From NCBI RefSeq assembly GCF_902652985.1, contig NC_047033.1, positions 8,308,001 to 8,372,000 on the forward strand: DNA of 64,000 bases. Direction: 5' to 3'. The position numbers and the translations under genes were made by a program. Positions 7,817 through 55,858 of this stretch are shown one piece after another. The stretch comes from Pecten maximus (Eukaryota). The stretch's first letter is position 1. Each line of letters opens with the position of its first letter. The notes below the pieces were generated by a model, which had not been told where the DNA came from, ran no database searches, and saw nothing but the letters and a program-made list of their open reading frames with translations.

Positions 7817-8481
7817 TGTGACTGTAAAATATGTAAATAAATAAATAAACTTCATAATTTGACAGAAGATAGAAAATGTTCAATTAGCCTTATGTTGCTG
7901 AACAAAATACATCTAACGTTTTTTTTAACTAAATGACGCCAAATGCAATTATCATTCTAAAGTATTCATCATTCAATCGAAGTGACGAATTTTTCAATAA
8001 TGAGCGATAAGTAAATTTTTCGAAAATTATGAATTGATGAAATTTTTAGAAATCAACTTTGCAATGCATTATTCAATTCTTACACGATTATATGCGATAC
8101 TTTTTTTTTTACCAGTACGTAATCAATATGTATCAATCTCATTTTCAGGCTAACATTCTGTGTCAACTCCTACGAGGCGAATATGACCGAAAATTGCAGC
8201 TCTCGTCTGAGACAACTCGATCACATAAGTTCAAGTAGATCTGTTCAGAATTACACATCTTCATGGGAAAGAGACTAAAATCATCCACCACAATGGAAAG
8301 CACGCCAGTCCGGGTAAAGCGAGATAACTCTTGCAGTTTAGATCGATATCTGTTTGGTATTGTGTGTATGCATGTAAAAGCGATTTCTTCCTTGATTTGG
8401 TGATTATAGAACCGGCATGCTTGTAATCACTGAACACAGACCTGCATCTGCAACACAATAAATGAACAATATATTGGCCTA

Positions 8482-15047: not shown

Positions 15048-16355
15048 ATGGGTGCCAATATATTGTTATATTTACTTGGTGTGATATTGACATTCTCGTG
15101 TCCTGCTACACCGTACACACACGACAATGTGAAAGCTCTTCTTACAAACATTTTCACAACTAACTCGTACAACAAGATGGTTCGTCCAACAGCAGATCAA
15201 TCACACTCAATAACTATGTTCTTGAACCTTAATCTTGTGGGAATAACCAATATTGACGAGGTACAAGAAAAAATGACAACCACGGCATCCCTTGAAGTGT
15301 TTTGGATTGATGAGTATATGATTTGGGATCCGGCTGACTACAACGACACTGATATACTTTATGTACCTCAGAAAAATATCTGGAAGCCAGATATTGCTTT
15401 GGACAATGGCTTTACTAAACTGGAGGAACTTGGAGACGATTTTTTATTGACAAGAATATACCACGATGGCACCGTGGAGTGGCGACCGTACGATGTGTTT
15501 GAAACAAAATGTTCTATTGACATAACATACTTTCCCTTTGACAAACAAAAGTGCGACATCATATTTGGAGTTTGGATGAGCCCGCTGAGCGCAATTGACG
15601 TTGAGCTAGGTAAAAGAGGCATCTTACTTGATTCATATCAATCCAATGGTGAGTGGGATCTCCTAACAACGTCTGCTGAAGCTTCAGAATCACAACTAGA
15701 TGGCGCTGTTGTCACCTTCTCTATAACGGTAAAAAGAAAGCCCCAATACATTCTCAACAACGTAGTGCTTCCTATCGTCATGTTGTCACTGCTTTCGGTG
15801 TTCGTATTTGTCCTACCTGTTGACTGCGGAGAGAAGATGGGCTATATTATGACAGTTTATCTAGCCTTTGCTGTCTTTCTGACAATAGTTAGTGGATCAC
15901 TTCCGGTAAGCTCTTCTATGTCGTTACTGAGTATATACCTGACATTACTGCTCGTTTTAGGAACAGTTATTGTTATGATTACTGCGTTGGAGCTTCGCAT
16001 TCACTACCGCGATAGTTCGCGTGAAATACCTAAGATTGCCAAATACATGGTACGGTTTAGCAAATGGTTGCGGTGTATTAGGCCAAACAAGATATCTCAA
16101 GTCGTGAGTAAGATCGAATACAGTCTCTCAAATGTCAGGGATACAACAGAAAACGAAACGACTGCAGATGCCATTAGACCGATTAAAAAGAATGCATTTT
16201 GTGAACCTGAAGTGGTTGAAGAGATCGTCTGGCCAGATGTGACGTCCGCAATCGATTTCTTCTTCTTCTGGTTTTTCATGCTGATAAATATAATAGCAAC
16301 GGTTTGTATATTTACAGATGGCTACATCAAGAGTGACAAACAAGCCGCTGTGTAG
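15048..16355 (+). CDS. Intronless Cys-loop nAChR-like subunit, non-alpha, copy A (435 aa)
   Basis: Signal peptide, IWKPDI, Cys-loop CSIDITYFPFDKQKC, GEWDL, KRKP before M1, PVDCGEK linker and four TM helices. No vicinal CC in loop C. Confidence 0.95.
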   Translation: MGANILLYLLGVILTFSCPATPYTHDNVKALLTNIFTTNSYNKMVRPTADQSHSITMFLNLNLVGITNIDEVQEKMTTTASLEVFWIDEYMIWDPADYNDTDILYVPQKNIWKPDIALDNGFTKLEELGDDFLLTRIYHDGTVEWRPYDVFETKCSIDITYFPFDKQKCDIIFGVWMSPLSAIDVELGKRGILLDSYQSNGEWDLLTTSAEASESQLDGAVVTFSITVKRKPQYILNNVVLPIVMLSLLSVFVFVLPVDCGEKMGYIMTVYLAFAVFLTIVSGSLPVSSSMSLLSIYLTLLLVLGTVIVMITALELRIHYRDSSREIPKIAKYMVRFSKWLRCIRPNKISQVVSKIEYSLSNVRDTTENETTADAIRPIKKNAFCEPEVVEEIVWPDVTSAIDFFFFWFFMLINIIATVCIFTDGYIKSDKQAAV

Positions 16356-19024
16356 GTGTATTTTTAGTCTTTAGCAGGCGAATAAGTTTACATGGTACAG
16401 TATTTCTCGTACAATATACTGTTATCTTATCTTTTTTTCTTAATTTTTGCATTGAAAAAGCATGTCTTACTGTAAAAATCTAAACTCAAAATTATAGAAC
16501 GGACTATAATTTCATTAAACGTTATTTTAGATCGCCAATTTAAACTGTTAGTGAGCATGCTAATAGTTCGAGTAATACGGGATATTCGAGTTATTAGAGA
16601 CTAGACCTACTCCAACAATGTTAGAGGTTTTACACGGCGAGATACTTTTAACAGGCGCCGTGTCGCAGTCGGCAAAATCATATCCGACATAAAAAGAGCC
16701 GACCAGCGGCCTCTTATGTTATAGGAGTAAGGCTAGACCTAGACCATTATAGGTAATGGTCGTATGAGTGTTACACTGTCCACACTGAATGGCTACTATG
16801 TAACGTCACCGTGATTTATTACGATTTATTTTCAGTTGCCGTATTGCAAAAAGAAGACATGTAAAGATTTAACAACATTCAATTATTATTTAAAGAAATA
16901 TAAACCGATCGATTTATTCATCCATTTTCAAGTAAATGATTTGTCTAAATCATGGCAAAGGCCTACCCAATTATCCACCGTACTATCCGTTCTGGTTAAT
17001 AGGTGCGAAGAGTAACTTTTGTTCGATATCGCAAGAAAACTTCATTTAAGCCCTGCCAAGTAATTGATGATGGTGTGTGCGATACATATTTACGTTGTAC
17101 AGTGCATAACCTTCTATTACCTTTGCTACATGCTGTCATTCCGTAATTTGGTTTTACACAAAAATTGGAACTTCCGTTTGCGTTCAAAAAGACTTATTAG
17201 AAATGTATTCATATAACAATTTTAATGATGTAGATGGTAGAGAAGGCGACTAATCAAGTCAACCATTATTATTTCCTGTTTTGACGGGACACCCGTATAA
17301 CTGATTTATTCATTTAACGGGTTTTACGTCCGCTATTATTTAGACCTTTCAGCTGACGAGACCTGTATATCACATGATACAGATCTATACAGCACAATCC
17401 CGGGGCCCGACAAATCCACGTGTGACGGAGGTAAAAAATTGTTAGGTTGCCACCTGTTAAAGGAATATGTAGGATTAATACTATAAGTATGAAAGGAAGG
17501 GGGCAGAATCAACATTTAACGAATGCAGGTTTGAGAAAGTTGGGTTTTAGTGTACATCTAGTTTGTGATTGTCTAAAAATCGTTTTCCCTAAAGAAAACG
17601 AAGGTAGAACACAGTGAAAACAATGGTTTTCGCCTTATCCAACGTTTTCTATCGGGTTAAGCGATTATCATAAAGCATTGTATATTAATAAGAGTATACT
17701 TGAAAAAGATTGTTTTTTCATAATGGGATATTGTAAGACTCTCCGTGATGGAACACATTTTAATACTCAGATATTTATTTTGAAAAAAATTAAATGCAAT
17801 ACGTAACTAATTCGAATCCAATTTGTTTAAATTAATATTTAGTACAGATGTGTTATTCAATGATAAAGGGCAAAGGTACTCTGCATAGCCGGTTATTTTA
17901 GCAAGAGTAAAATTCGGCGTTTAACGCAAAAATACAAAGATTAAATATTAATGTGTTTGATTTTAATGATAGCCCGAAATACAATTATTTTTGCTATGAT
18001 GGTTTTAGCACCCGATTTGCATTCATGAACTGTAAAAGATGAAAAGAGAGCATATCTATTGTAAGATTTTAAAACAGAAATACTTATTGATTAAAACATG
18101 ATAGATTAATCAAGTCCCATCACTATAGCGCCATTGGTATATTAACACTGTGCTTCTATATTATAAGTGTTGGGTTTAAATGGTATCTACATGTAGTTTA
18201 TGTTTAGTGACGCTAATATCTAGCTGGAAGTAATTCAACTATTCTAGACTAGTCGTTTAAATAACCCGCTATACGTATGAGCCAATTTTATAATGGATAT
18301 TTTCCTCTTTTTCTCTTATATATTTCTTTTTCTCTCTTATCTATTTCAGCGCATATGAATTGCAATGAAGTCAATAGAGCATAAGACTACATTATTACAC
18401 ATAAACCATAATTTATAACTATACAATAAACATATGTTTAAACGGTATAGTTTTATTTCTTTAAGAGCATAAAAGTATGTATTAGCCAATAAAAATTTTA
18501 TGCCAAGGCTTATCAATTTTTTAGGACTTAATTTTTTTAGGATTGCCTCAAACTGAGTTGTTTATATTCGAGCTTATGACCTAAAGTCAAATAAATGGAA
18601 ACTGTCATTAGGAGTAGTCAAATGTCTCGAAACTTCAGTAAATATGACATTTTATTTAGCGAAAGTGTCAGTGTCATCTATTTTTATATAACGTTTATAT
18701 ATATATATATATATATATAATCTTATTCATAACAAATATGATAAAATGTTTTGGTGTATATTTGTCGCAATTATGACATTCGTTGATATTTAATGTTAAT
18801 GTAATAATGTATTATTCAGTCATTCAACTAGTGTCTTGTCTTGATATATTAAAAAAAAACATAATCTGCAAGGTAATGGGTTTACCCTAGCATTATAGAC
18901 CTGAGTTTAATAACGTATGATACTGTTGAAACATCCACCCAGTCATGATTCACATTAATATCGAATAGCACTAGGTTTGTGGGTATCCTCGCAGCAGAAG
19001 ACGCTAACCCATTGTTAACACCTG

Positions 19025-19257
19025 GGCCCGGTTGTTCAAAGGTGATTGGGCTATTCACAGTTTAACAACAATATTAAAATCTTGATAAAATAATTTCTGG
19101 TAAAACTTATTTGACAAAATTTCTGAAACTATAACTTACCAGTCTCTTCATACCTGCTGATTTTGAAGAATATACACGCCTATAATTTGAAGTAAAGGAG
19201 AAATGAGATTTTCACTAATCAAGTGATTAAGCTAATCACCTTTTAAACAACTGTGCC
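19025..19257. mobile_element. MITE, Harbinger-like (CTG TSD)
   Basis: TIRs GGCCCGGTTGTTCAAAGGTGATT and AATCACCTTTTAAACAACTGTGCC; CTG on both sides (19022-19024 and 19258-19260). Confidence 0.7.
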
Positions 19258-19781
19258 CTGGTAATTATCATTCGGTATTAAGTTGTTCACATTATTGTAT
19301 GTCCTCGTTTGGTTGAATTAAATAATAATTATGATATCGATCACACCTTGCTATCATCATCTTGTTTATTACTTATTACTCAATTACTCAATTTTATCAA
19401 TTGTAATTTCCTGTAAATAAAAAGTTTTAAACAATTCGTATCATACCAGCGATATTTGTTTTGTCATATCCAGAATTACAGCTTAATATAGTTAACAGGG
19501 TAAAACGCTATTGACGCCAGCTATAATAATATAAAATATATTTATGTGGACTAATCATACTACTAAATAAAAACACAATTTGTGTCAGAACTTGTCTATC
19601 AAAATGAGTGTTCCTCATATGACAGGAGAGTACGATGTTACTGGAGAGGTACAAAGGAATTATTAAGGACCCGGTTAGAAAATTCCATTAGTGTTAAATA
19701 TTTTACTGACTTTTGAATTGACCTTTCCGTATGGGAAACTGTTGAATTATGTATAGTTTAAATGGCTGATTTAGTATTCAA

Positions 19782-20002
19782 GGGGCCGCGGTGGCCGAGT
19801 GGTTAAGGTGTACCGACACTTTAACACTAGCCCTCCACCACTGGGTTGCGCGTTCGAAACCTACGTGGGGCAGTTGCCAGGTACTGACCGTAGGCCGGTG
19901 GTTTTTCTCCGGGTACTCCGGCTTTCCTCCACCTCCAAAACCTGGCACGTCCTTAAATGACCCTGGCTGTTAATAGGACGTTAAACAAAAACAAACCAAA
20001 AA
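19782..20002 (+). mobile_element. tRNA-derived SINE (V-domain-like), copy 1
   Basis: Box A TGGCCGAGTGG, box B GTTCGAAAC, V-like core TCTCCGGGTACTCCGGCTTTCCTCC and an (AAAC)n tail. TSD ATTTAGTATTC at 19769-19779 and 20003-20013. Confidence 0.9.
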
Positions 20003-20872
20003 ATTTAGTATTCCAAATTTCTACCTCAGAACCCTGTTAGCACATGCTTGCTTATGAAATGCATCTACCTGTACATGTTTATTCAGGGTGATAAGCGTAA
20101 TATGATATCACTGAGAGAAATTTGCATCACTTCAATTAGTAATGTGCATCCAGATCAGAACACACTTAAAAGGTAGCTAAGTAATTAGCTTAATTTATGG
20201 TCGTAACGGCATAACAAGTTGGTTAGTTGTATTCTAAATTTTTCAGCATCCTTAGTTTGGTACTATCTATCATATGGGTATATATACGACGATCCGTGCA
20301 CCGTGTGTTGTTTCTGGACACACCAGGTTTGTACATAGCTTTCTTTTATTGGCTGTTGATAAGTTCATCGGGGTAATGTAATTGTTGGTCACTGATTGGG
20401 CAGCAGTGAATAGGGCCCGCGTCCCCTTCTTCATTCTTCATCCATCTTGGATGTACAAAAAAGCGGAAAATTATAGTCAACATTTTTAATTTCACCCACT
20501 AGCTACACATAATAGCTTATTTAAGCTGTTTGATGTAGGTTTTTCAGTGTTATCTGTTTTTGTGGTTTTTTTGGCTGTTTTTGGCAACCCCACTCAGGCT
20601 AGATGGAATTGTAATAATTGCTTCTATTGTTTATAGAATGCAATGACAGTATGATAAATTTTATCATTATCTGTATTTGTTTATGCTTTCTGGGACATGA
20701 GTATGACTCTAGGTTTTATGTAATATATTTTAATTGTCACCATTTTGGTGGCCATTTTCATTAAAATCTGAGTTTTCTTGTTATGAGTGTAGATCATAAA
20801 TGCTATTAAAATTAACAACGGGTTAGAATGCTGAATCAAGTGATATACCACGACAATATATACATTGTAAAT

Positions 20873-22115
20873 AGAGGATCTGTCATGAGTTTCCCTTCAT
20901 ATTAGATTTATGATACGAGTTTTGAATTTTTTATTTTTGCGAGCCTCTGGCGAGCAAAAATAAAAAATTCTAAACGAGTATCATAAATCTAATATGAAGG
21001 GAAACGAATGACAGATTCTTTTTATCATATGACGTTTTCTTTCATCGTTCCCCATCAAAAACTGATTTTCTCTTTTGCCTTGAATCGTCACATCTCAACC
21101 AAATCACCCGAACCTTCGAAGTAGGTCAATTATACCGACGAGAGAAGAAATAGTTCTAACACAACTGACTCTTGAAAAGGATTCATTTTATTAAATACAC
21201 GTCTCAAAACAAAATTTCAGCATTTTTTCATTTAATCTATAATAGATAAATTGTCCTTGGTGTTTGAAACAATGAGGAAAATATTTTAGTTTGAAAGTTC
21301 ATGAGCGACTGTTTTTGATGTGACGAAGCCGTGACGTCACTTGGCGCGATAATGGAGGCTTCGTTGTACAAATGTCTATTCGCTGTCGCTGTCGTACAGA
21401 ACCATTGTACGGCGCCTTTTCACTGCTTTGTGTTTATCCTCGTCCTCGCGGGAGTTTTTGGAGATATGAAATGTTCCACCGTGAATATTCCCACTGAGCA
21501 TTGTGTTCAGACTGCCGTGAAAAGCGACTTTGGATGCCGATTTGTTGGCAGTGTTGTTTGTTTTGACATTACACGTGTTTGTCGACGACAGTGTCAGCAT
21601 GTTATTCTGAGTAACCGTTGAAGGCAAGTTGTAACAAACTACATTGCCGTTTTTCATGAGGATTTTATTAAATAATGTTATTATTTGTTTATTTGAAAAG
21701 AATCTAGACTAGATATGTCTCATCGGACAACGCAACCGCAATTTTCTATCGGAGTTGAAATATGTTACTAGGGGTCATAAAATAGATGTTTGCCAGGCCT
21801 AATTTAACATCTTATAGTATAAATATAATTAAAAAACTTAGGATGTTTACATCTTGGATTTTATCTTTGATTGTACAATATGTTATGTTAATAGACCATT
21901 TTGTCGTTCAGTTGATTTTTTTTCAAAGTTTACAAGCACAAGTCGCCATTTTTACGAGTCGTAGTAAAAAGAAGTAGGTCGTTCCCACGCGTATGAATAC
22001 AGTTCTCACGGAACCAGCCAATCAGCGTAGCGAAAGGTGTTATTACACTAGTGTCATAAAGAAAATTTATGTGATGGGTTTATGACACCGTATATAACGG
22101 TAGTCATATGATAAA
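20873..22115. mobile_element. Non-autonomous element with a terminal hairpin, possibly Crypton-related
   Basis: Hairpin at 20875-21019; inverted pair TTTATCATATGAC (21021) and GTCATATGATAAA (22103-22115). The internal minus-strand ORF remnant 21376-21657 ends GGTFHI...KRRRTMVLYDSDSE, a C-terminal tail style I associate with Crypton/DUF3504-type proteins. Confidence 0.45.
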
Positions 22116-22986
22116 TATATATACAATTGTATAAATTACGATAAGCGAATGATACGATATGTTATCACTATAGTTTACATATGCTTTACCCCATTCGCGC
22201 TCTTCCATCCAGGCACAGTAGAGTGATTTGTAAATTTTGTTATAATGTTTCGTCATAATTGTAAGTTTAGATTTGCATACATTACATAACATGATTGAAT
22301 GTCAGTAACTTACAACTATGACTTTCTTAGAGCTGTGACATGAAGGAAGATCCATATAAGAAAGCTATTAATTAACAACCGGTATACAACGCAAACATGC
22401 CTAGATACTTTCGTACACCCGACCAACCCATTGTTTTTCCATAGACTATAGCGTAAATGTTTTGGAATATATCATTAAAATTCTTGAATGGCAAATATGG
22501 TCTATAACAAAAGTTTAGGGTCTATATATAACACTAAATAAAAAAAACAAAAAAACCGGTGGGTCCTTCAGCTCATTTTTTTCCCGTGGTAGCCATTTTG
22601 AAAATGGGTGCATTTCGCAGTAAAAATCTCAAAAATTTGAAATGTTTACCTGTTAATTATTTTGATCCGAACTTTTGAAAGAAAATTCAATCGGACTTAC
22701 GAAAATTTATATCAACATGGATAGTTACCTATCAGGCTATACATCTATTTTGTAACTTCACACATGTAACATGGCCAATCAGTGGCTGCCAGACATTTTA
22801 TCCCCTGGCTCAACTTTTATACACAGGGGATGATTCAAAAGTCTATTTTTCCAATTTGTTGGTTGTTCCATATCACCTCATGTCTATATTCACACATTCA
22901 CTTGTAAATAGGTAATTTGTTTTTTCCTCGTTTGTCAGAGAGATTGAGACACTTTTTCAAAAATCTAATCGTATACATTTTAAATA

Positions 22987-23180
22987 GGGGCTGCGGTGGT
23001 CGAGTGGTTAAGGTGTCCCGACACTTTAACACTAGCCCTCCATGGGGCAGTTGCCAGGTACTGACCGTAGGCCGGTGGTTTTTCTCCGGGTACTCCGGCT
23101 TTCCTCCACCTCCAAAACCTGGTACGTCCTTAAATGACCCTGACTGTTAATAGGACGTTAAACAAAAACAAACAAACAAC
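22987..23180 (+). mobile_element. tRNA-derived SINE, copy 2 (internal deletion removes box B)
   Basis: Near-identical to 19782-20002. TSD ACATTTTAAATAGG at 22975-22988 and 23181-23194. Confidence 0.9.
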
Positions 23181-24963
23181 ACATTTTAAATAGGATATAA
23201 TACTATTTGATTTTGATTTGGAAACGCCATACTTGTCCGATTTTCGTTTCGCTAATATTGTAAGCGTTTCTATTGTTATGTATTCAAGTATGAGCGCATT
23301 GCCAAATTTTATATATTATTGCTATGATCAATAGCTAGGAAACATTTGCGATGATTTGTTATCTTGTCATACAGATCAATTGCTATAAGATTTGTTTGTT
23401 CGTATGCTGAGTTCTTTCGTCCCGTGAACATGGCTATGGTCATTAGGAGGCGGGTTTCTCCTTTTAGTACATGTAGTTGGTGACTACCTCATCGAGCAAC
23501 ATACAATAGGCCAGTCGCATGCCATCAGGAGCAATTAAGATTAAGAGTCTAGCCTATTACAAGAAAATCCTTTAAAAAATACAAGAAGAATATGTCCAAG
23601 TTATTATAATTTACAGAAAACCTGAAGTATATTTTTTATATATACTACGTATCAAATACTTATAACACTCAATCCAACTTATTAGATACGGTATATTCTA
23701 GCATGTGCATTGGAGAAGATTCAATTAATTCAACACACAATATTTCCCAATGTATTTAGATTTACTACATAAATGAAAGGCTATGTACCCTGAAAAGTTT
23801 CGATAGATTTTCCGAAGGTGCTATTTACATTATTGTTGTTAGCATTATACCTTTAATGAATTGCTATTACCGATATGAATTCATGCGTGAAATGAACTAC
23901 ATTTTTCACTGATGCAGTAAGCATAGCATCATATATCGACATTAATAACACTACTGGATACATGTGTACCAAGGATATTGATGTCCTTTGTAAAGATGAT
24001 ATATAAATACAACGAGTCAAAATGGGATATCTGATATAAATAAAAACATTGATGAATGCAATCTGTTGGAAAAATAATTACAAATTCCGTCGTGGAACAG
24101 TTGAAATAGAAAATGATAATTAAGAGAGAACTGTTGACACAAAAAACTAGTAACTATGATAGCCATCGAATAAATGACCTTTGTTTAAATAAACTAAAAA
24201 GTATATGGTCGCAATGTTTGATTAGGTAAATATGTATGTACTTTTTATTAATAGTAAAGGTAAATGTATCTCTCGTGGGATTAGTTGCAATTAGACTAGT
24301 ATTCAATAACTCTGTGGTTTGATCAATAAAGAGGAGTGGCTCACATTGGTATTTCCAAGCTATTACTAAGAAGAGAAAGCATATATCAAACACAGCAAGT
24401 ACTTCGTGTAACGACATCATCTGTGGATTCCTCACCGTTCACCACTGAAATATAATAATATGATAAGAGTTCATAAATGTGTTGGGAGTACCATACGGCT
24501 TTTGTGATGACACTGGTTGAAATGTGGAGATCAGCTGTTTTGAAGGAAAAAGTATACATTTCTATCATTTTGCGGTAGTCATCACATTATTGTTCAAGGG
24601 ATCATTCAGTATTCAATAGAGGATCTGTGGCATGGGACAGAGAAATCTACTGATGCAAATACATTTTCAAATAGATATATATTTCTACTTCAAACATTTC
24701 GCATTATAGTGGACAGTTTCAAGACATATTCATCAAATTGCATATCGTATTGTGCTTTGTTATGTTTCGTTCGTAGCCATTTTGCTGGAAGTATATTAAC
24801 AGATATATGTGCTCGCGATTTCCGTGCAGCAGTATACACGTACTAGAATATATCTAATTGGTTATAACTGTATAAGTGGTGAATCGAGGGAGGAAAGTGT
24901 AGATCCTTCTACGAAGTATTTTAAACATACTAACACTTGAGTACAAATAATTAATTAGCAGCA

Positions 24964-26259
24964 ATGAGAACTATTTCGCTGGTGTCGCTACTTTGTGTGC
25001 TTGCAACTCTTCCTTGTCCTGCCACATCATACACACACGACAATGTGAAAGCTCTGCTTACAAACATCTTCACAACTAACTCGTACAACAAGATGGTTCG
25101 CCCTTCCGCAGATCAATTCGTCCCAATTATTTTGTACGTGAACTTAAATTTAGTTGGAATAACTGATATCGACGAGGTGCAAGAAAAGATGACATGTACT
25201 GCCTTCTTAGAACTAGTCTGGATAGACGAATATATGAATTGGAATCCGGTCGATTATAACGACACCAGTGTCATATATGTACCACAGAAAAATATCTGGA
25301 AGCCAGATATTTCTTTGGAAAATGGATTTACAAAACTAACGGAACTTGGCGATGATTTTTTACTGACTCAGATTTCCAGCGAAGGTAATGTCTTGTGGCG
25401 TCCATATGATGTATTTGAGACAAAGTGCTCAATAAACATAAGGTATTTTCCATTTGATAAACAAACGTGTGATATAAAATTTGGCGTTTGGACCAGCCCG
25501 CTGAGTGAGGTAGACGTTGAGATAGGAAGTGATGGCATCTTGCTTGATGAATATCAACCTAATGGTGAATGGGATCTCCTAACAACTTCTGCCGAAGCTT
25601 CAGAGTCACAACAGGATGGCGCTATCGTCACATTTTCTATAACTGTGAAAAGAAAGCCTCAGTACATTCTCTATAACGTAGTACTTCCGATTATAATGCT
25701 GTCTCTACTTTCGGTGTTCGTATTTGCTCTACCCGTCGACAGTGGCGAGAAGATTGGCTATATAATGACAGTATACTTAGCCTTTGCAGTTTTTCTAACG
25801 ATTGTAAGTGCGTCACTTCCGGTAAGCTCTTCCATGTCCTTATTGAGTATGTACCTGATATTGCTTCTGAGTTTGGGAACTGCAATTGTCATGATTACAA
25901 TTCTAGAACTCAGAATCCACTACCGCGACGGATCATATGAAATACCCAAAATTGCTATATGCATGGTTCGCTTTAGCAAAACGTTGCGGTGCATCAAGTG
26001 GAACCAGGTCAGTCTAGATGTGACGGCATTTGAAGAGAGCCTTAACGACGGTAAAGGAAAATTGGAAAATATCAAAGAGGTACACATGTCGAAGAAACCC
26101 ATCAAGAAGGCTTTCGCGAAACCAGACCTGTCTCTTGAGTTGACTTGGGCAGATGTTACGTCCGCAATTGACTTCTTCTGTTTTTGGTTTTTCTTGCTGA
26201 CAAACATAACCACAACATGCATTATATTTTTAGATGGCTACTTCAAGAGTAATATGTAG
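24964..26259 (+). CDS. Intronless Cys-loop nAChR-like subunit, non-alpha, copy B (431 aa)
   Basis: Same architecture as copy A; Cys-loop CSINIRYFPFDKQTC and PVDSGEK linker. Confidence 0.95.
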   Translation: MRTISLVSLLCVLATLPCPATSYTHDNVKALLTNIFTTNSYNKMVRPSADQFVPIILYVNLNLVGITDIDEVQEKMTCTAFLELVWIDEYMNWNPVDYNDTSVIYVPQKNIWKPDISLENGFTKLTELGDDFLLTQISSEGNVLWRPYDVFETKCSINIRYFPFDKQTCDIKFGVWTSPLSEVDVEIGSDGILLDEYQPNGEWDLLTTSAEASESQQDGAIVTFSITVKRKPQYILYNVVLPIIMLSLLSVFVFALPVDSGEKIGYIMTVYLAFAVFLTIVSASLPVSSSMSLLSMYLILLLSLGTAIVMITILELRIHYRDGSYEIPKIAICMVRFSKTLRCIKWNQVSLDVTAFEESLNDGKGKLENIKEVHMSKKPIKKAFAKPDLSLELTWADVTSAIDFFCFWFFLLTNITTTCIIFLDGYFKSNM

Positions 26260-27557
26260 ATTTTGTTAAATACCATATTGAGGTATTTTGATGAATCAAC
26301 ATTTTCCCAATCTCAAAATAAGTATAATTTAATGCAACATGATGAATTTATCTTGACCTACGCATATTAGAATCCATAATTACATATGTAATATGACTAT
26401 TGTCTCAAATTTCACGCCATCAGCTTATTTATGTTTAATAATTAACCATCGTCCAGCCATAACTTAAGAAATGTTTTTCAAATGCCATATTAACCACTGA
26501 AAAACAAAACATATATAGTATCATTGTGCTAAAAAATTGTTTTAATTATAAACGTTCCATTCAGTTAGTGTCGGCAGGATAACAGTGAGCCATTTTACAC
26601 GGATCAGGAAAGAGAATAAAACTCGTAAGAAAAGTTTAATAAACTGCGGATGATATTTACTTTTTGCCTGTTTAGTTCATTGGAATTAATCAATTATGAA
26701 TTTTTCTATCAATTTATCTCCAATGCTTGCACATGTACATACCAATGCCACTAATAGAGATGAATTTGGCAAATAGTGTAGGTTATATAATCAATCATAT
26801 ACACGTATTATCATTGCTCTCAAATACTTATTTACAGTTTGGCTCTATTGTATGGTGGATAGATTAACTGTTAGCTCAAAACTAACAAACAATTAATGAC
26901 TTGTTTTCTGGTGAATACGGTGATTTTTTCGAAGCCTATTAACATTTTTGGGAACGAACTGGTGTGGTTGCATTGTTATATGAACCTGAAGCACTGGTTT
27001 TGGGTTGATATGATATCTGAGGAATGTGTGAATGTTTTGAATCAACCAATCAGTGAAAGGAGAAAGACACAGTCATATAATAATAAGAAGTAAATATTTT
27101 ACAGTTATGATATTATATTGGCAAAATAAACGCAAAATTGAACAAGATAAAAAAAAAATAAATAAAAGTATGTTAGCCGGTTCCGATAGCTACATTAAGT
27201 AGATACTAGAAATATGACGATATTGGGAAGTTTTAATTAATAGTGTAGACATTTAGAAATAGTTAACTGACATACATAAAATACCATGAATAAATCGATA
27301 TCACCTTTCTCATTTGCTTTTATCGATAAAAGGTACAGTAGCAATCGATGACACCGACAGGTATACGTATTATTAACCGAAGGACATGATTATTTCTACT
27401 GTCGCCGTTCCGATGTCGGGAAATGATTAATTGACGATGATGAAATGCATGCACTTCAGGAATCAATACGTAATATACCTAAATCATTTTGATAAACTTT
27501 AGCATTACTATTATACACCATCCGCTTTGACATTGCACAGTTATCATAAGAAATCAG

Positions 27558-27737
27558 GGTGCAGACGTTCAAAGGGGTAATCAGGTAAGCAGAGTTAAAG
27601 AGGAATTTCAAAAAAAAAAATATTTCTTTCTGCATGCCAATATTAAGAAATAACAACACTCTGGTTTTGAAGTTAAGAAGAAACGAAATTGTCACTAATC
27701 AAGTTTTTAAGCTAATAATCTTTTGAACAACTTGGCC
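27558..27737. mobile_element. Degenerate copy of the MITE at 19025-19257
   Basis: Right end CACTAATCAAG..TAAGCTAAT..TTTTGAACAACTTGGCCCTG matches that MITE; left TIR is degenerate. Confidence 0.55.
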
Positions 27738-30630
27738 CTGGTAATCAAAGTCCAGTTATATTTGGCATGTGCTTAATGTCAGTAAAAGAAGTAAAAAGGA
27801 TGAAACATATTTTGCTTATCATTTGAGTGAAATCGAGCTATCAATGACTGTAAATACTTCAAATATTATTATTTACTGAATTATAATATCAATTTGCCGT
27901 CGAGTAAATAGTAATACATTGATTGACCGAGTTCTATGTTACAATGATATCTAAGATATGACAGTGCATTTACATCGTGTCTGAAACAAGCAGAGTGAGA
28001 TATATTTTACAAGAAACATTTATATGATTTTTGTCGCCCTGCAAATTTTGGGTTAATTCCTGGTACGATTGAAAAATTAATAAATACATGATATATTTTT
28101 AGGACCTGATTCTGTATCACAGTTAGTTAGCAACAATTCTGTGTATCCATATGGATAATTTGAAATGAAATGACTGAAGTAATAGTCTCAAGTTGATTTG
28201 TTTGGTTTTAGAATAACATATTTATTAAACCTTTGTGTATCATTATTGTTTTTGTAGTTATTATTTGACATATACTATCATTTGTTAAGACAAAATCGTA
28301 CTAGAGATGATTTTATCAGCAACAGAAACATGTTCAATACTTTATTAGATTCAGTATGGTTCGATAGAAGTTGTATTATTATTTATAATGCATGTGAAAG
28401 ACGAAAGCTTTTATCATTAATAAATTACCACCAGACTTATTGCCGTCAGTTTATTGTGACGTTGACAGTAATCTATATATGCTATATATTTTAATCTGTA
28501 CTCGACTTATGGACTTTCAGATAGAATTACGGTTACCTTTTCACAATTTTGGTGTTCTTTGTTGTGATGTACATGTACTTGATTTACGATTGCCATGGAA
28601 TGAGCGTCTGAAGTCAACAGATGTAGTCATGGTTCGACGCTCCTTAGCCATGTCGGTTTGTGTTTCTCTGGAAACTGGCCGGTGTGTGTTATGCATGTGT
28701 CCTTGGGTAAGACACTTTATCGTAATTAATCCGGATAGCATGCAACATGCCTCTCGTATGTTGTTCAGTGAGGTAGTCACCAACTACTACAATGAGACCC
28801 CGCCCTAATGACACTGGATGTTCACGGGACAATAAACGCAACAAACAAACTATATGGGATACAAGTTTTTATATTTACGCCGTGGAGCCAAGTTTTATAT
28901 ATGTGATGCTGATTGCTTGAACGCAACTATGCCATCATGACACCAATCTTCATTGATGCCTGAAGGGGAAAATTAGCTATTTTGATCAGAGATGTGATAG
29001 TCTGATAATCGAAAGACTCAATTATTAATACGTTTGATATGAGGCAATAGGCTTGACTAAATTTGCTTAATTTTTTCAACCATGTACTCACATAACCATA
29101 GCTTCTGTTTGAACGATAAACACAGATCAAACTAAGTTTATCGTGTCACAACGTCACCATGTTAAAATCTTGGGTTCAACAACTTTTATTAATAATTTAG
29201 TATCACTTTCATAAGAATTCTGAAAAGAAGGAGTTTCAAGATATGTCAATTTCCCATATAGGTTGACCTAAACTGTTTTTATAAACTTGGACATCACTCA
29301 ACGATATATTGCTTGTATCTTCTTGGTTTCTTTGGCTATGCATTTAGTCAAAATTAATCGATGATGCACTTGGCAATTAACCAATTACGTAACAAAATTA
29401 ATAAACCAAGACCGCAGATTGCTACAAAACAGATAAAAATAATTATTGATTTTAACAAAATGGAAATGTTTGAACCATAAACTAAATAGAAAAAAAAAGC
29501 TAAAACTAAGTACACCGCCGATATTTTTTTCAAGTATTTGTGAAAACAAGTCATTTTTTAATCAAATGACATTTTGAATGTCTTTCATATTTAGTCCATT
29601 CAACATATTTAATGTATAGAGAGCTTTATCACTTACCCTAATCCTACCCAAGATAAAAACTTAACTATTTGTGCAAAGTGTTGATTTTTGGCTTTGATGT
29701 GTGACCTTACTGACTTTTTCAATAGTTGACGCAACATACTTCCCCGTAACACATGCTCTTCCTAATAGATCACAAACTGTAGCACGCATAAATGTAATGC
29801 TGACATGTGTAAACCACGTCCTTAAATAACTATAATTAGGACGTTTGATACGATATATTACACGATATTACAAGATAGTAACTAAACAATTTTTGCAACA
29901 GTATACCCATAACCCCAACCACATTGTTCTGTTTAAATTACTTTTTACATTTTATTTTCAAGTAAATATCGTCTATGTTCATGATATGAAATATTATTTT
30001 AAAGTGCTGCTATCCTATTTACAAAATCGCATCTGAGAGAGACTTAAAACACCTAATACAGCACCGCTCTCATAACGAGATGAGAGATAGGTGTGAAGGT
30101 GCGGGTTGTGAAGTTGTCTTTAGGAGAAACATTAAAAAAAAGGAAATTAGCAAAAAAAAAATAAAAAAAAAAAAAAAAAGGAAAAAAGACTATCCCAGTA
30201 CAACTGGTTTCTTGATATTTCAAAAGCAGATGGCGATAATTTTACTGAGGATCTAGAGATTAACACATTCGCTAAGTGTTTCAATACTTATCAGAAATGA
30301 AAATCGAAATCAAAACGATGGTGTTGATAGCATGCCATTATTATTCACAGAAGATTAGGTTTTGGTGCATCTTGCCACGCCAAATGCACACTGTGTATGA
30401 ATAGGTTCAATCAAAACTCGACCATTTTGTCCAAGCTCGCACAACACCAACTCATCTTTCATCTTAAACTTTGGTGTCCTTGATCTTCACGTAAGTATTC
30501 ACTTCATCTCATGGGGAAAGATCTTAACCCTAACGTTGAAATTCGCATTGATGAAAGATAAATGTTGACTTCTCAGCTACGCTCTAGATCAAAGGGTATC
30601 ATCAATGATCTTTCGGAGTTTCGCATATAC

Positions 30631-31549
30631 TATTAATGCAGGAGTCTTGTTTTGCTCTGCGTTTCTTGTCTTAGGATAATGCAGATTGTTAAGCCCGGAC
30701 AGGCTGGACAAAAACAAAAGTTTCTAGAATTTCTTTCACATAATTTGTCCTCTAATCGACACTGGCATGCACTGCTGTAATTCTGGGTAAAAGTGAAGAC
30801 GGACATATCCTAGAAACGGTGTTCAACTCTTTTAACATGTAAATTCCCAGTATATCAAAACATTTCATTTCATAATAAAAGCATTAGACAAAACTACTGT
30901 TCCGTGGACGTGACCATCTTACATGAGGAATATTCTGGAGCACAACAGTGTTCTCCAAATCATGTTTGTGGCAGGCGGGCGACTGTTATACTTGACGGTA
31001 CTAATATTTTTATATCTGAGTTCTGATCACAAGCTCCAGAGAATCTCCTACACTGGCAAGAAGAAGCGGAAATATTCGAAATTAAATGGATTATATCTGC
31101 CTAATGGCTACATTCTGGTCATAACAGGAACTTTTCCTGGAAGCGATAATGATGCAAAGGCTACAAAAGTCATCATTGATATTCTCTCCTGGCTGTAGAA
31201 AGATGACAATGTCGTTGTTGGTCTAGGGTTAATGAATGTTTTATCAGATATGGAATGACGTGATTTGACAACAAAGATGCCGTCTAATCTGAAAACTGTA
31301 CATTGGTACATCCACTTTTTCTCGTGATCATATACAGTTATAAAACATTTAACGTTATTTGTTTTACCAACAATTATAAAGCAGGTTATATTCTTAAAAT
31401 GGATTGTACAAAAGATACACACAATATTTCCACTTTTCAATACATACAGAGAGTTATGATACAACAGTGAAAAAAGAATTAAACCTACTGATAAGTATCA
31501 CCCTTAAACGACTATCAAAGCAGAGCAAAGCAAGACTCCTGCATTAATA
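30631..31549 (+). mobile_element. Internally deleted PIF/Harbinger (ISL2EU-like) transposon with a DDE_Tnp_4-type transposase remnant
   Basis: 30-bp TIRs TATTAATGCAGGAGTCTTGTTTTGCTCTGC (30631) and GCAGAGCAAAGCAAGACTCCTGCATTAATA (31520-31549). Frameshifted VILDGT...QRISYTGKK...PNGYI..ITGTFPGSDNDA at about 30983-31170. Confidence 0.75.
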
Positions 31550-32029
31550 ACATAAACTACTATATATTGCTGGATCAGTTAAATAATATTTAACGATATC
31601 TCGTTTGTATCAATTAAGAAAAAAAAACCCATTATAAACATATTTGAGTTGTAAATATTATAAATAGCTACGTATATATGGAACTGATATTAAGGCGATA
31701 TTCTAATTATGTTTCTGGTAGACTTCATACTATACTGTTTTTATAACATCAAAGCGTTTTAAATAAATCTATTGTCTTTTTAGCTGCACCGTTAAGTTTG
31801 ACTCAATAGAGTGTACATGTCAAGGCATCGTTATAAAATGTCCACGTTTTTCTGTTGCGATACAATAACAACATACCAACTCTTCAATTCACTCCTCGCT
31901 AGTGTCGACCTTGGCTTTTGTTCCATCCTTTGTCTTGCTATACCCCAGTCTTTACTACAGACAAGTAGTTATTACGTCACATGTATCCATACGGCACTTG
32001 TGGGTTCTATAACACATGTATTCATATGT

Positions 32030-33200
32030 CACTGGTAGAACTACCTACTAGACACCTGTATTCATATGACACGGGTAGTTACATGGCAGCTGTATTCATA
32101 CAGCACTGGTAGTTAATTGACAACTGCATTCATACATCACTGGTAGTTAATTGACAACTGCATTCATACATTACTGGTAGTTAATTGACAACTATATTCA
32201 TACATCACTGGTAGTTAATTGACAACTATATTCATACATCACTGGTAGTTACATGGCAGCTGTATTCATCACTGGTAGTTAATTGACAACTGCATTCATA
32301 CATCACTGGTAGTTAATTGACAACTATATTCATACATCACTGGTAGTTAATTGACAACAACTGTATTTATACGGCATTGGTAGTTACTAAGACACCTATA
32401 TTCATACAATACTGGTAGTTACTAAGACACCTATATTCAAACAGTACTGGTAGCTACTAAGACACCCCTATCCATACGACACTGGCTGTTACTAAGACAC
32501 ATGTATCCATAAGACAATGGCTGTTACTAAGACACATGTATCCGTAAGACACTGGCTGTTACTAAGACACGTGTATCCGTACGATACTGGTCGTTACTAA
32601 GACACATGAAGTCATACAACACTGGTAGTTACTAGACACCTCTATACAATACTGGTAGTTAAAAAACACCTGTATCCATAGTTACTAAAACACCTGTATC
32701 CATAGTTACTAAAACACCTGTATTCATAGTTACTAAAACACCTGTATTCATAGTTACTAAAACACCTGTATTCATAGTTACTAAAACATATGTATCCATA
32801 GTTACTAAAACACCTGCATACGACACTGGTAGTTACTAATACATCTGCAGTCATACGACACGCTGAGACACCAGTATCCATAGTTACTAAAACACCTGTA
32901 TCCATAGTTACTAAAACACCTGTATCCATAGTTACTAAAACACATGTATCCATAGTTACTAAAACACCTGTATCCATAGTTACTAAAACACCTGTATTCA
33001 TAGTTACTAAAACACCTGTATCCATAGTTACTAAAACACCTGTATCCATAGTTACTAAAACACCTGTATTCATAGTTACTAAAACACCTGTATCCATAGT
33101 TACTAAAACACCTGTATCCATAGTTACTAAAACACCTGTATTCATACGACACTGTTAGTTACTCATACATATGCAGTCATACGACACTCTTAAGACATTT
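32030..33200. repeat. Compound minisatellite: 33-34-bp units followed by derived 24-bp units (CATAGTTACTAAAACACCTGTATY)
   Basis: Direct observation; explains repeat ORFs 32642-33145 and 32805-33152. Confidence 0.93.
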
Positions 33201-34175
33201 GTATTCATAGTAAACTGATAGTTATTATAACAACATTAGTATAGAAATGATTTTTATTATATCCTGCTAGCTGTATCCAATAAATAGTAAAAGTGTATTC
33301 GATAATTAATTAATTAATAAACTATTCAATGGAACGTTCCATCGTTAAAGAATTGAACAACATATTGATGTCTATAACTACCTTTTGTTATTCTAATGAC
33401 GAGGTAGATCTCTAATGTAAATTCTGTAACGGTAATTTGCCAGGCTAGAGACCTTGAATTATTGTTATACAGTACATATGACTTTTAAAGTTTTCGTAAA
33501 AGAAAATTGATCTGTGACAATCTACTCTAGAGATATATCACTCGGCACTACAGCTCATTGTTAGTGACACGGACAATAGTGTAATCTTACAGTGTACATA
33601 TCTCACGATCGCGGGTACTTAAAACAAATGGTATATTTACGAGTTCAGAACTGTCGTTGGATTAAGGTATTTGACAAAGGGTAGGGAACAATTTCTATGT
33701 AAACAATTCTAAAGTGAAACGTCGAAACATGTATTGCTCTTGATACTTTTTGCCAATTTGGGATAGTCACTAACCGGGTGTTATCGGCATGTCGTTTCAG
33801 TGATATCAACTTAAAACTGGTGATGTAACGTTCTACCAAGGAATAAAGATCAGGGAATTATCCCTGATGTAAGTTGATCTATTGTGTCTTTGGGAATTAC
33901 TTTTCACGGCCTTCTATTGTCAAATATCGAGAAGTGGCAGAACATTTCTGGAAATATCAAAAACAGGGTGTTACCTAGTACATCGGGCGCCTTTTTTGGA
34001 AGTATACTGTGAATGTTAACCTATGCTGGCATATTCATATGAGTGATTGAGGAATTTATCATTCTCAAGGATTTGAAGATAAACGGTGTTGGGAACATGA
34101 ATGAGTGATGTTTTCTACTTATAAGCAATTATAACATAAACTTTAAAATTTATGTAAGATAACTCACTGGTAAAA

Positions 34176-35474
34176 ATGGAAACTATTTTGATGGTGTCAT
34201 TACTTTGTGTGTTTGCTACACTCCCGGATCCTGCTACATCGTACACACACGACAACGTGAAAGATCTGCTTACAGACATCTTCACGATAAACTCGTACAA
34301 CAAGATGGTTCGACCTGCTGCAGATCAATCATACCCAATAATTATGTATCTGAACTTAAATCTCGTGGGAATAACCGATATTGACGAGGTACAAGAAAAA
34401 ATGACAACCACGGCTTCCCTTGAGATTTTTTGGATTGATGAGTATATGATTTGGGATCCGGCTGACTACAACGACACTGATATACTTTATGTACCTCAGA
34501 AAAATATCTGGAAGCCAGATATTGCTTTGGACAATGGCTTTACCAAACTAGAGGAACTTGGAGACGATTTTTTATTGACAAGAATATACCACGATGGCAC
34601 CGTGGAGTGGCGACCGTACGATGTGTTTGAAACGAAATGTTCTATTGACATAACATACTTTCCCTTTGACAAACAAAAGTGCGACATCATATTTGGAGTT
34701 TGGATGAGCCCGCTGAGTGATGTTGATGTTGAGTTAGGAGGTAAAGGCATTTTACTAGATGCCTATCAATCTAACGGCGAATGGGATCTCCTGACAACGT
34801 CAGCTGTCGCTTCAGAATCACTACTAGATGGCGCTGTTGTCACCTTCTCTATAACTGTAAAGAGAAAACCTCAATACATCCTTTACAATGTAGTACTCCC
34901 CATTATAATGTTGTCACTGCTATCTGTGTTCGTTTTTGCTCTCCCTGTTGATTCCGGCGAAAAGATGGGTTATATAATGACACTCTACCTAGCGTTTGCT
35001 GTCTTTCTAACAATTGTAAGTGCGTCACTTCCGGTAAGTTCTTCCATGTCCCTATTGAGCTTATACCTAATATTGCTTCTGAGTTTGGGAACTGCCACTG
35101 TTATGATTACGACACTGGAACTCAGAATTCACTACCTCGACAATTCCTACGAAATACCAAAATTCGCAAAATGCCTTGTCCGTTCACGCCAAAGGATGCG
35201 ATGCCGCAGAACGAGTAAGAAGATACATGACGCGGGTGAAAATGAAGCTAGCATTTCAATCATAAACAATGCAACGTTAGATTCTCCAAAATCGGAAACT
35301 TCGAAACCGCCGCTTGTGAAAAAACTCGCAAAGCCGGACGTACCCAAGGAAGAGTTGACATGGCCGGATGTGACATCAGCAATCGATTTCTACTGTTTTT
35401 GGTCGTTCTTGCTAGCTAACATATTAATAACTGTTATCATTTTTGCAGACGGGTATGTTAAGAGCGAACGTTAG
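34176..35474 (+). CDS. Intronless Cys-loop nAChR-like subunit, non-alpha, copy C (432 aa)
   Basis: Same architecture; Cys-loop identical to copy A and PVDSGEK linker. Confidence 0.95.
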   Translation: METILMVSLLCVFATLPDPATSYTHDNVKDLLTDIFTINSYNKMVRPAADQSYPIIMYLNLNLVGITDIDEVQEKMTTTASLEIFWIDEYMIWDPADYNDTDILYVPQKNIWKPDIALDNGFTKLEELGDDFLLTRIYHDGTVEWRPYDVFETKCSIDITYFPFDKQKCDIIFGVWMSPLSDVDVELGGKGILLDAYQSNGEWDLLTTSAVASESLLDGAVVTFSITVKRKPQYILYNVVLPIIMLSLLSVFVFALPVDSGEKMGYIMTLYLAFAVFLTIVSASLPVSSSMSLLSLYLILLLSLGTATVMITTLELRIHYLDNSYEIPKFAKCLVRSRQRMRCRRTSKKIHDAGENEASISIINNATLDSPKSETSKPPLVKKLAKPDVPKEELTWPDVTSAIDFYCFWSFLLANILITVIIFADGYVKSER

Positions 35475-43941: not shown

Positions 43942-44534
43942 CTACTGTCTTAGGCCAACAAATCGCAAGCTGGGCTCATAACTAGCTCTGGAAAATACCA
44001 GAGCACCAGGTTGGATTTTGGAGTAAAATCGAGGAACATTTTCATTACATGACAAAAATTTTGCTCTATAGTCTCCAAGATCTGGGTGTTTGTCTAGGTC
44101 TGTGGAATCTCTTCTCATAAATAATGAAAAATTTAAGTACAACCATATCTTCACAATAGTGAGGGCAGTCAAGTGTTCTTCGTCAATTTTCAGAATATCC
44201 ATCTTCTTCAATAAAATGTCATTTTTGCAATCATATGAGTAAACACAGATTTTGTCTGGTGTACAGCCGAAAGCTGGTATTGGCAGGCCTAAAAGATCTA
44301 CATTTGCATTAGTTTGTGCAAATGCATTAGTAATTGTCTCTGCTATCAACTGACTTTTGAAAGTTTTGTGTTTAAGGCTTAATTCACTAATGTCTTTTTT
44401 CATATCATCTGTTGAACTCCATTTAAGATCTTGTTCCTCAAATTTAAATGTGTTGTCCTCATCTTCCAAGACGGTTAATGGTAGCACTCCATTTATCATC
44501 ATGTTGACATTGCCATGCCATGTCAGGTCAAGCC
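43942..44534 (-). CDS. Uncharacterised protein, exon 3 (terminal)
   Basis: Acceptor TATATTGTAG at 44535, phase 1, matching the exon 2 donor. Open to the stop at 43942. Confidence 0.75.
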
Positions 44535-55580: not shown

Positions 55581-55855
55581 CAGTGCAACTTCAGAAAACC
55601 GAACCTTCTAAAAACTGAACACCTCTGAATACCGAACAAATTGTCATTGTACGGAATTGTTCCTTCTTTATCATAGTATTAAAACACTTCCAAATACCGA
55701 TCCCTCTGAATTCCGAACACAGGACCGATATTATGTCCGGTTCCTGTTAAAATATACCAAAAATTACTTCTGAAAACCGGCCTTACCTGAGCGATTATGA
55801 CACGAGCTCATGCCAGTCAATCTTGAAACAACACCTGTGACGGGTAAACAGTAGC
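55581..55855 (+). mobile_element. Left part of a Tc1/mariner-type MITE abutting the LINE
   Basis: TA|CAGTGCAAC terminus followed by repeated ACCGAAC subterminal motifs. Confidence 0.45.
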
Positions 55856-55858
55856 TAT

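What the first reader, a model, noticed from the sequence alone, without database searches (positions are those of the whole stretch)
15048..35474. Tandem intronless nAChR-like genes that have lost the acetylcholine aromatic box: candidate bivalve chemosensory ion channels
Seen in sequence: three intact, co-oriented single-exon ORFs about 9-10 kb apart. Aligned by eye to nAChR alpha subunits, the loop A Tyr is D/E (IWKPDIALDN, IWKPDISLEN). The loop D Trp is S/F (TTTASLE, TCTAFLE). Loop C is shortened and lacks both Tyr and the vicinal CC (SAEASESQLDGAVVTF). Only the loop B Trp remains (FGVW). The pore is still cation-type (GEK linker, Thr 6', Leu 9', Val 13'). Established: bivalves have expanded intronless nAChR-like genes, and cephalopod chemotactile receptors are clustered, intronless, ACh-insensitive Cys-loop channels. 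Inference: these are orphan cation channels gated by a ligand other than ACh, possibly an independent bivalve sensory receptor family.
Basis: partly seen in the sequence, partly recalled or inferred. Interest (0 to 1): 0.72.

Follow-up and report, generated by a model that had tools for sequence, protein, structure and literature searches.

The report
Scallop orphan nicotinic-like channel trio
Three intact scallop genes encode nicotinic-receptor-like channel subunits that lack the acetylcholine-binding residues, as about a hundred relatives in the same genome also do, so they likely respond to some other, unknown chemical; one of them has likely had its binding core overwritten by a neighbour's copy.

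Summary
In detail: three intact single-ORF Cys-loop genes (72-75% identical) lack loop A Tyr, loop D Trp and the loop C tip, and keep loop B Trp and a cation-type pore. It is not special to this trio. None of 96 such paralogs aligned from this genome has loop C Cys-Cys, whereas intron-containing alpha subunits elsewhere in it do. The expansion (intronless, tandem, binding sites lost, other ligands proposed) is published (Jiao 2019; MolluscaGenes 2026). The trio lies in a subfamily whose named members are all bivalves, has counterparts in three other scallops and is under purifying selection (dN/dS 0.14-0.20). The wider box-less radiation includes limpet, abalone and pond-snail proteins, so it is not bivalve-only. 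Identity to octopus CRT1 and squid CRB1 (24%, 22%) is no higher than to human alpha7 (28-30%), and the predicted pocket is polar. Best reading: orphan cation channels gated by a non-ACh ligand. A sensory role is untested, and no expression data were obtained. One new detail: genes 1 and 3 share a 290-base tract (287 identical) over loops A, E, B and the Cys-loop, most likely gene conversion.

The parts
15048..16355 (+). g1: single-ORF Cys-loop cation-channel subunit, 435 aa, box-less (S81, D119, W176, short loop C)
   Evidence: model pLDDT 90.9
24964..26259 (+). g2: paralog, 431 aa (loop D Phe, loop A Glu)
34176..35474 (+). g3: paralog, 432 aa (loop D Ser, loop A Asp)
15300..15589 (+). Tract in g1 (codons 85-181: loop A, loop E, Cys-loop, loop B) near-identical to g3; likely the acceptor of a gene conversion
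   Evidence: 287 of 290 bases identical, 3 synonymous differences; 0 of 2000 codon permutations reach it; trees
34428..34717 (+). Matching tract in g3; likely the donor
15828..15896 (+). g1 M1-M2 linker and M2 (GEK, T6', L9', V13'): cation-type pore signature; the same in g2 and g3

Best explanation
These are three intact, conserved members of the published mollusc expansion of intronless nicotinic-receptor-like genes, and they likely form cation channels opened by a ligand other than acetylcholine. Shown: the Cys-loop fold, the cation-type M2 signature, loss of four of the five aromatic-box residues and of the loop C tip, tandem arrangement, counterparts in other scallops and purifying selection. 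Inferred: retroposition followed by tandem duplication (from the literature); assembly as homomers or with sister box-less subunits; binding of a small polar, water-soluble molecule in an open, lid-less pocket floored by Trp176 and lined by conserved charged residues (acid or Lys at 119, Arg146, Asp/Glu149, often Glu83), leading to Na/Ca influx. Also inferred: g1 is a mosaic whose binding core was copied from g3. Whether the ligand comes from seawater (sensory, most plausibly gill or mantle) or from inside the body is open; I put it near even.
For: Box loss with pore kept, family-wide: of 96 own-genome paralogs, 0 have loop C Cys-Cys, 5 loop A Tyr, 10 loop D Trp, 81 loop B Trp, 96 L9', 94 E-1'. 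Four canonical YxCC alpha exons in the same genome serve as a positive control. Purifying selection: dN/dS 0.14-0.20 whole gene, 0.04-0.05 in M1-M3. Outside the tract each gene groups with a protein from another scallop (bootstrap 88, 97, 97). Across about 20 of 33 young paralog pairs, pooled dN/dS is 0.41 in binding loops, 0.25 in the rest of the ectodomain and 0.14 in M1-M3. With Ser at loop D, g1 and g3 lack both the principal and the complementary aromatic residues. Among 15 close scallop relatives Arg146 is present in 13 and an acid at 119 in 13. Precedents for nAChR-like channels with other ligands: octopus DopC1 and CRs.
Against: No channel activity, ligand or homomer formation has been shown for any member. 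The trio's own loops are conserved (dN/dS 0.14-0.20), unlike a fast-diversifying sensor, and only 1 of 33 pairs reached dN/dS 1 in the loops, at very low divergence. The pocket description rests on alignment to alpha3 and a monomer model, not on a pentamer model. In the wider subfamily 100 of 118 homologs keep an aromatic at loop D, which would suit a complementary-face role. Alpo4, another lophotrochozoan orphan, gave no current with more than 30 compounds.
Confidence: 0.6

Rival explanations
1. Accessory (non-alpha) subunits: they co-assemble with canonical YxCC alpha subunits and tune an ACh-gated channel (kinetics, Ca permeability, trafficking) without binding ligand themselves.
For: Canonical alpha genes exist in the genome. 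Best solved-structure hits include beta4 and beta2 at scores close to alpha3. 100 of 118 subfamily homologs keep an aromatic at loop D. The trio's loops are under purifying selection.
Against: At least 97 such genes with divergent loops and a conserved pore are far more than an accessory role needs. g1 and g3 have Ser at loop D. None of the 21 pattern matches lies on the window's contig. Loop C is shorter than in human beta4 (30 against 32 residues, counted).
Confidence: 0.2
2. True peripheral chemosensors, functionally parallel to cephalopod chemotactile receptors, detecting waterborne cues (food, predators, microbes) in gill, mantle or tentacle epithelium. This is the sensory sub-case of the best explanation.
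For: Large, tandem, intronless family with faster change in loops than in the pore. Gills show the highest nAChR expression in bivalves (Jiao 2019). In its scallop table six genes with near-consecutive IDs (PY_T05140-05145) are almost gill-only.
Against: Those IDs could not be linked to this trio's orthologs. No expression was obtained here. The pocket is polar, whereas the CR pocket is described as exceptionally hydrophobic. Identity to CRT1 and CRB1 is 24% and 22%. Family members are also expressed in embryos, gonad, haemocytes and muscle.
Confidence: 0.3
3. The g1/g3 shared tract is an assembly or polishing artefact rather than gene conversion.
For: The tract was not confirmed in independent reads.
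Against: It carries 3 synonymous differences and sharp edges inside two otherwise 77% identical genes 19 kb apart. Similar mosaic windows occur in 15 of 4560 paralog pairs.
Confidence: 0.12
4. Non-functional or decaying retrocopies.
For: Jiao 2019 notes that more intron-poor copies are silent or low. Some paralogs here have in-frame stops within the match.
Against: All three ORFs are intact at dS about 1, with dN/dS 0.14-0.20 and counterparts in other scallops.
Confidence: 0.03

Closest known systems
Expanded intronless molluscan nAChR genes (Jiao et al. 2019, PMC6896357)
   Same: Intronless, tandem, 99-217 nAChR genes per bivalve; most lack the alpha Cys-Cys and principal sites (33 of 132 alpha, 13 complete in oyster); other ligands proposed.
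   Different: No residue-level or functional study of this subfamily in the parts I read; no mention of mosaic tracts there.
Vertebrate nAChR subunits (alpha3, beta4, alpha7; PDB 6pv7, 8ut1, 8c9x)
   Same: Top sequence and fold matches (183 bits; Z 29.4; 28-30% identity); Cys-loop, loop B Trp, GEK, T6', L9', V13'.
   Different: No loop A Tyr, loop D Trp, loop C Tyr pair or Cys-Cys; loop C 5 residues shorter; single-exon coding sequence.
Cephalopod chemotactile receptors CRT1 (9e6b) and CRB1 (8eiz)
   Same: Same fold (Z 23.3 and 22.5); intronless; ACh-site residues altered.
   Different: Only 24% and 22% identical, and absent from the 60 best solved-structure hits; the CR pocket is hydrophobic and this one is predicted polar; CRs have shown sensory expression and ligands, these have none.
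Alvinella Alpo4 orphan receptor (8bx5; PMC10338036)
   Same: Lophotrochozoan nAChR-like orphan without the vicinal disulfide; 24% identity, Z 25.7.
   Different: Alpo4 keeps most aromatic-box residues (F103, W159, Y199, Y205, W65); the trio keeps only the loop B Trp.
DopC dopamine-gated cation channels (bioRxiv 10.1101/2025.04.02.646353)
   Same: A nAChR-derived cation channel that is not ACh-gated: the precedent for an internal ligand.
   Different: DopC is a conserved, low-copy relative of alpha9/alpha10; no link to this subfamily was tested.

Membership tests
Cys-loop cation channel subunit | Ligand-binding domain plus four transmembrane helices, Cys-x13-Cys loop | tested here: met
   Pfam; model helices 232-255, 263-284, 293-319, 395-434; C155/C169
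Cys-loop cation channel subunit | Cation-type M1-M2 linker and M2 (GEK, T6', L9', V13'; no PAR) | tested here: met
   sequence signature only
Cys-loop cation channel subunit | Forms a conducting pentamer | not testable with these tools
   needs electrophysiology
nAChR alpha subunit | Loop C YxCC and second Tyr | tested here: not met
nAChR alpha subunit | Loop A Tyr | tested here: not met
   D/E/D
nAChR alpha subunit | Loop B Trp | tested here: met
   W176
nAChR complementary (beta-type) subunit | Loop D Trp | tested here: not met
   S/F/S; g2 keeps an aromatic
nAChR complementary (beta-type) subunit | Co-assembly with an alpha subunit | not testable with these tools
   needs co-expression
Molluscan intronless nAChR-like expansion (Jiao 2019) | Intronless coding sequence | tested here: met
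   UTR introns not tested
Molluscan intronless nAChR-like expansion (Jiao 2019) | Tandem array within a large paralog set | tested here: met
   97 matches (a lower bound), many clustered
Molluscan intronless nAChR-like expansion (Jiao 2019) | Groups with other intron-poor copies, apart from intron-rich alphas | tested here: met
   24 box-less sequences against 4 canonical exons, SH-aLRT 99.7 on 152 columns that include loop C itself
Cephalopod chemotactile receptors / CR-like clade | Falls in the CR or CR-like clade | tested here: inconclusive
   No CR sequence was available for a tree; structural identity 22-24% against 28-30% to alpha7
Cephalopod chemotactile receptors / CR-like clade | Hydrophobic orthosteric pocket | tested here: inconclusive
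   Aligned pocket positions are mostly charged or polar, but no pentamer model was made
Cephalopod chemotactile receptors / CR-like clade | Expression in sensory epithelium | not testable with these tools
   no RNA holder listed
Cephalopod chemotactile receptors / CR-like clade | ACh-insensitive, gated by environmental compounds | not testable with these tools
   needs electrophysiology

The most novel reading that the evidence does not exclude
The box-less intronless radiation is the main ionotropic chemosensory repertoire of bivalves (about 100 genes per scallop), tuned to polar waterborne cues rather than the greasy surface compounds octopus CRs detect. It shares an ancient box-less ancestor with gastropod copies and retunes receptors by swapping binding-core segments between neighbours through gene conversion, as in g3 to g1.
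Probability: 0.25. Interest if true: 0.8.

Novelty: new member of a known kind. Interest (0 to 1): 0.36.

Why it matters
Bivalves carry around a hundred of these orphan channels, and I found no ligand reported for any of them in the papers searched. If they are sensors, they would be the missing fast chemical sense of gills and mantle and a parallel to octopus taste-by-touch. This trio is a convenient test set: g1 and g3 are identical over loops A, E and B but differ in loops F and C, and g2 differs at loops D and E, so nature has supplied the chimeras. The locus itself is ordinary for the family.

Tried and rejected
Expression: no RNA holder was listed. Four runs laid on 12400-30000 covered intergenic DNA as thinly as the genes, with repeats very deep and no splice joints in the genes, so they behave like low-coverage DNA and say nothing on expression. 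Independent read support for the g1/g3 tract was not obtained. Linking Mizuhopecten orthologs (OWF51276, 51281-51283) to the PY_T IDs of Jiao's expression table was not possible. CR placement: CRT1 and CRB1 were not among the 60 rows shown for g1, two profiles or three distant paralogs; this does not exclude kinship. The primary CR papers were not held, so CR features come from secondary passages. Positive selection on the loops was not shown. Support labels printed are shifted by re-rooting, so supports are taken; there the tract's grouping with the Argopecten g3 counterpart is unresolved (27-31), and direction rests on identity only. One larger tree timed out and was replaced by a 28-sequence one. 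The ESM Atlas gave only generic nAChR-like clusters. Earlier scan findings: none relevant.
Full report
1. Observation. The three ORFs are present at the stated places, intact and co-oriented, about 9-10 kb apart, and are 72-75% identical as proteins. Each has the Pfam ligand-binding and membrane domains. Aligned to human alpha3, loop A Tyr is Asp/Glu, loop D Trp is Ser/Phe/Ser, loop B Trp is kept, and loop C lacks both tyrosines and the cysteine pair. Loop C is 30 residues from Trp to Pro against 35 in canonical alpha exons. The AlphaFold monomer (pLDDT 90.9) shows strands 203-215 and 219-230 joined by a three-residue turn, so the lid of the pocket is gone. M2 is cation-type by sequence.

2. 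Organism. Named paralogs from Pecten maximus lie on a contig of the same length as the window's contig, so this is very probably that scallop. The g1 sequence is held in the ESM Atlas, and g2 and g3 are in the protein collection; they are already predicted genes.

3. Is the trio special? No. A search of the genome gave 97 matches, a lower bound. I fetched 96 of them (one duplicate on a small scaffold was left out) and aligned the best open frame of each. Loop C Cys-Cys: 0 of 96. Loop A Tyr: 5 (3 gapped). Loop D Trp: 10 (6 gapped). Loop B Trp: 81. Cys-loop intact: 96. L9': 96. E-1': 94. This set favours long single exons close to g1, so it is not the whole repertoire. Some Tyr somewhere in loop C occurs in 54 of 91, so the total lack of Tyr is a little stronger in the trio than in many paralogs. 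As a control, a YxCC-type pattern gave 21 matches against 5 for the reversed pattern. Of the 12 loci examined, five were nAChR exons with the intact motif and one a weaker match; the rest did not match the profile.

4. Relatives. All species-named hits among the 120 listed in each of two searches are bivalves: scallops, mussels, oysters, ark shell, pearl oyster, venerids, Mya, Mactra, Dreissena and unionids. In the 118 homologs, none has Cys-Cys, 1 has loop A Tyr, 117 have loop B Trp and 100 keep an aromatic at loop D; Ser there is nearly confined to the trio's scallop subclade. A profile search of 50% representatives reached further: 0 of 82 single-domain hits have Cys-Cys. Of 20 looked up, 10 carried a species, 6 bivalve and 4 gastropod (Patella, two Haliotis, Physella), none cephalopod. 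In a 28-sequence tree the gastropod proteins fall among the bivalve box-less ones, apart from four canonical exons (SH-aLRT 99.7; 152 columns including loop C; inner branches weak). So the narrow subfamily looks bivalve, but the box-less radiation is wider.

5. Evolution of the trio. dN/dS is 0.14-0.20 overall, 0.09-0.14 in the ectodomain and 0.04-0.05 in M1-M3, at dS near or above 1: these are maintained genes. On residues 182-345 and 393-428, g1 groups with a Ylistrum protein (88), g3 with an Argopecten protein (97) and g2 with one of each (97); Mizuhopecten has four relatives on one scaffold. The array therefore predates these scallop splits. Across about 20 of 33 independent young paralog pairs (dS 0.02-0.8; a few may be alleles), pooled dN/dS is 0.41 in binding loops, 0.25 in the remaining ectodomain and 0.14 in M1-M3; the trio's loops are at 0.14-0.20. 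This fits relaxed or diversifying pockets over a fixed pore but does not prove positive selection.

6. The mosaic tract. g1 15300-15589 and g3 34428-34717 are identical at 287 of 290 bases, with three synonymous differences. At residues shared by all three genes, g1 and g3 use the same codon in 66 of 70 cases inside the tract and 33 of 72 in M1-M3; 0 of 2000 codon permutations reach the observed window. The tract covers loop A, loop E, the Cys-loop and loop B. Inside it g1 and g3 group at 98. The tract is 89% identical to g3's Argopecten counterpart and 81% to g1's Ylistrum counterpart, which suggests g3 as donor; the tree does not resolve direction. Mosaic-like windows were flagged in 15 of 4560 paralog pairs, most of them over M1-M3 and less clear-cut. 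The tract is unconfirmed in independent reads. One literature search for gene conversion in tandem mollusc nAChRs returned only a nematode review (listing only).

7. Mechanism. Without loop A Tyr and the loop C tip these subunits cannot supply a standard ACh principal face, and g1 and g3 also lack the complementary aromatic (established nAChR structure-function, recalled; residues). The pore is conserved, so the likely unit is a cation channel with another trigger. Among 15 close scallop relatives the aligned pocket positions are Trp176 (15), Arg146 (13), acid at 119 (13), acid at 149 (15), acid at 83 (9) and Tyr197 (15). Assigning 83, 144 and 146 to the pocket rests on recalled alpha7 numbering. 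This points to a polar ligand, not the hydrophobic compounds of CRs. Structural comparison gives 28-30% identity to alpha7, 24% to CRT1, 22% to CRB1 and 24% to Alpo4, so no special closeness to CRs; fast evolution of CRs could hide kinship.

8. What is in print. Jiao 2019 (PMC6896357; main text parts 1-4 of 6 read; supplement 7 parts 1, 15 and 16) reports the intronless tandem expansion, loss of binding sites, highest expression in gill and possible diverse ligands. MolluscaGenes (PMC13174522; passages) reports clades with substituted pocket residues, a CR-like clade reaching bivalves and gastropods, and the idea of an ionotropic chemosensory role. De Gieter 2023 (PMC10338036; passages) included Pecten maximus proteins in its tree and names mollusc-specific families; its figure supplements were not seen and may already class these genes. 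The DopC preprint (abstract, section 6 and part of the supporting legends) gives the internal-ligand precedent. The jingle-shell tentacle paper (PMC11682238; passages) has no occurrence of 'nicotinic' or 'acetylcholine' and calls CRs known only from cephalopods. The octopus mating preprint was seen as passages. Nine searches found no functional test of a bivalve box-less receptor; most subscription journals are not covered.

9. Verdict. Real and correctly described, but an ordinary locus of a published expansion. Non-ACh orphan channel: about 0.6. Sensory in the strict sense: about 0.3. The additions here are the family-wide count, the gastropod reach, the polar pocket prediction and the g3-to-g1 tract. 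Novelty: new member of a known kind. Interest 0.36.

Noticed in passing
window 6608-7855 (-): Single-ORF octopine dehydrogenase-like gene (415 aa; PF02317; 362 bits to PDB 3c7a) lying inside the receptor array, between paralog L014 and g1; possibly a retrocopy.
   Followed up: partly
G000:C19:8305332-8307421 (L097 7332-9421), just before the window: Paralog L014 is split into two frames about 700 bases apart, consistent with one gained intron; its Mizuhopecten counterpart is on the same scaffold as the trio's relatives.
   Followed up: partly
G000:C19:8376746-8378023 (-), L007: Further single-ORF paralog 4.7 kb past the window end, on the opposite strand.
   Followed up: partly
G000:C19:6227108-6236215, L004 and L005: Near-identical tandem pair (dS 0.04) of the trio's closest paralogs, 2.1 Mb away; also Ser at loop D.
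   Followed up: partly
L035/L037, L038-L040, L043/L050/L061, L055/L070, L058/L087/L093, L069/L071, L075/L089: Other paralog pairs with a window of 95% or more identity in otherwise 71-83% identical genes, mostly over M1-M3: possible homogenisation of the pore while the ectodomain diverges.
   Followed up: partly
window 56260-58440 (+): Intact reverse transcriptase ORF (726 aa, PF00078), LINE-like, with an upstream open frame at 55841-56227.
   Followed up: no
window 4751-6493: 27-bp minisatellite, 64.6 copies, open in frames on both strands and ending about 115 bases from the stop codon of the dehydrogenase gene.
   Followed up: no
window 43942-44502 (-): 186-aa ORF with no Pfam match; may be an exon or a mobile-element remnant.
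   Followed up: no
window 32046-33192: Compound minisatellite (34- and 24-bp units) ending about 1 kb upstream of g3.
   Followed up: no
L104 1141-1572 (+): YxCC-bearing frame that stops soon after loop C with no M1, like a soluble acetylcholine-binding protein.
   Followed up: no
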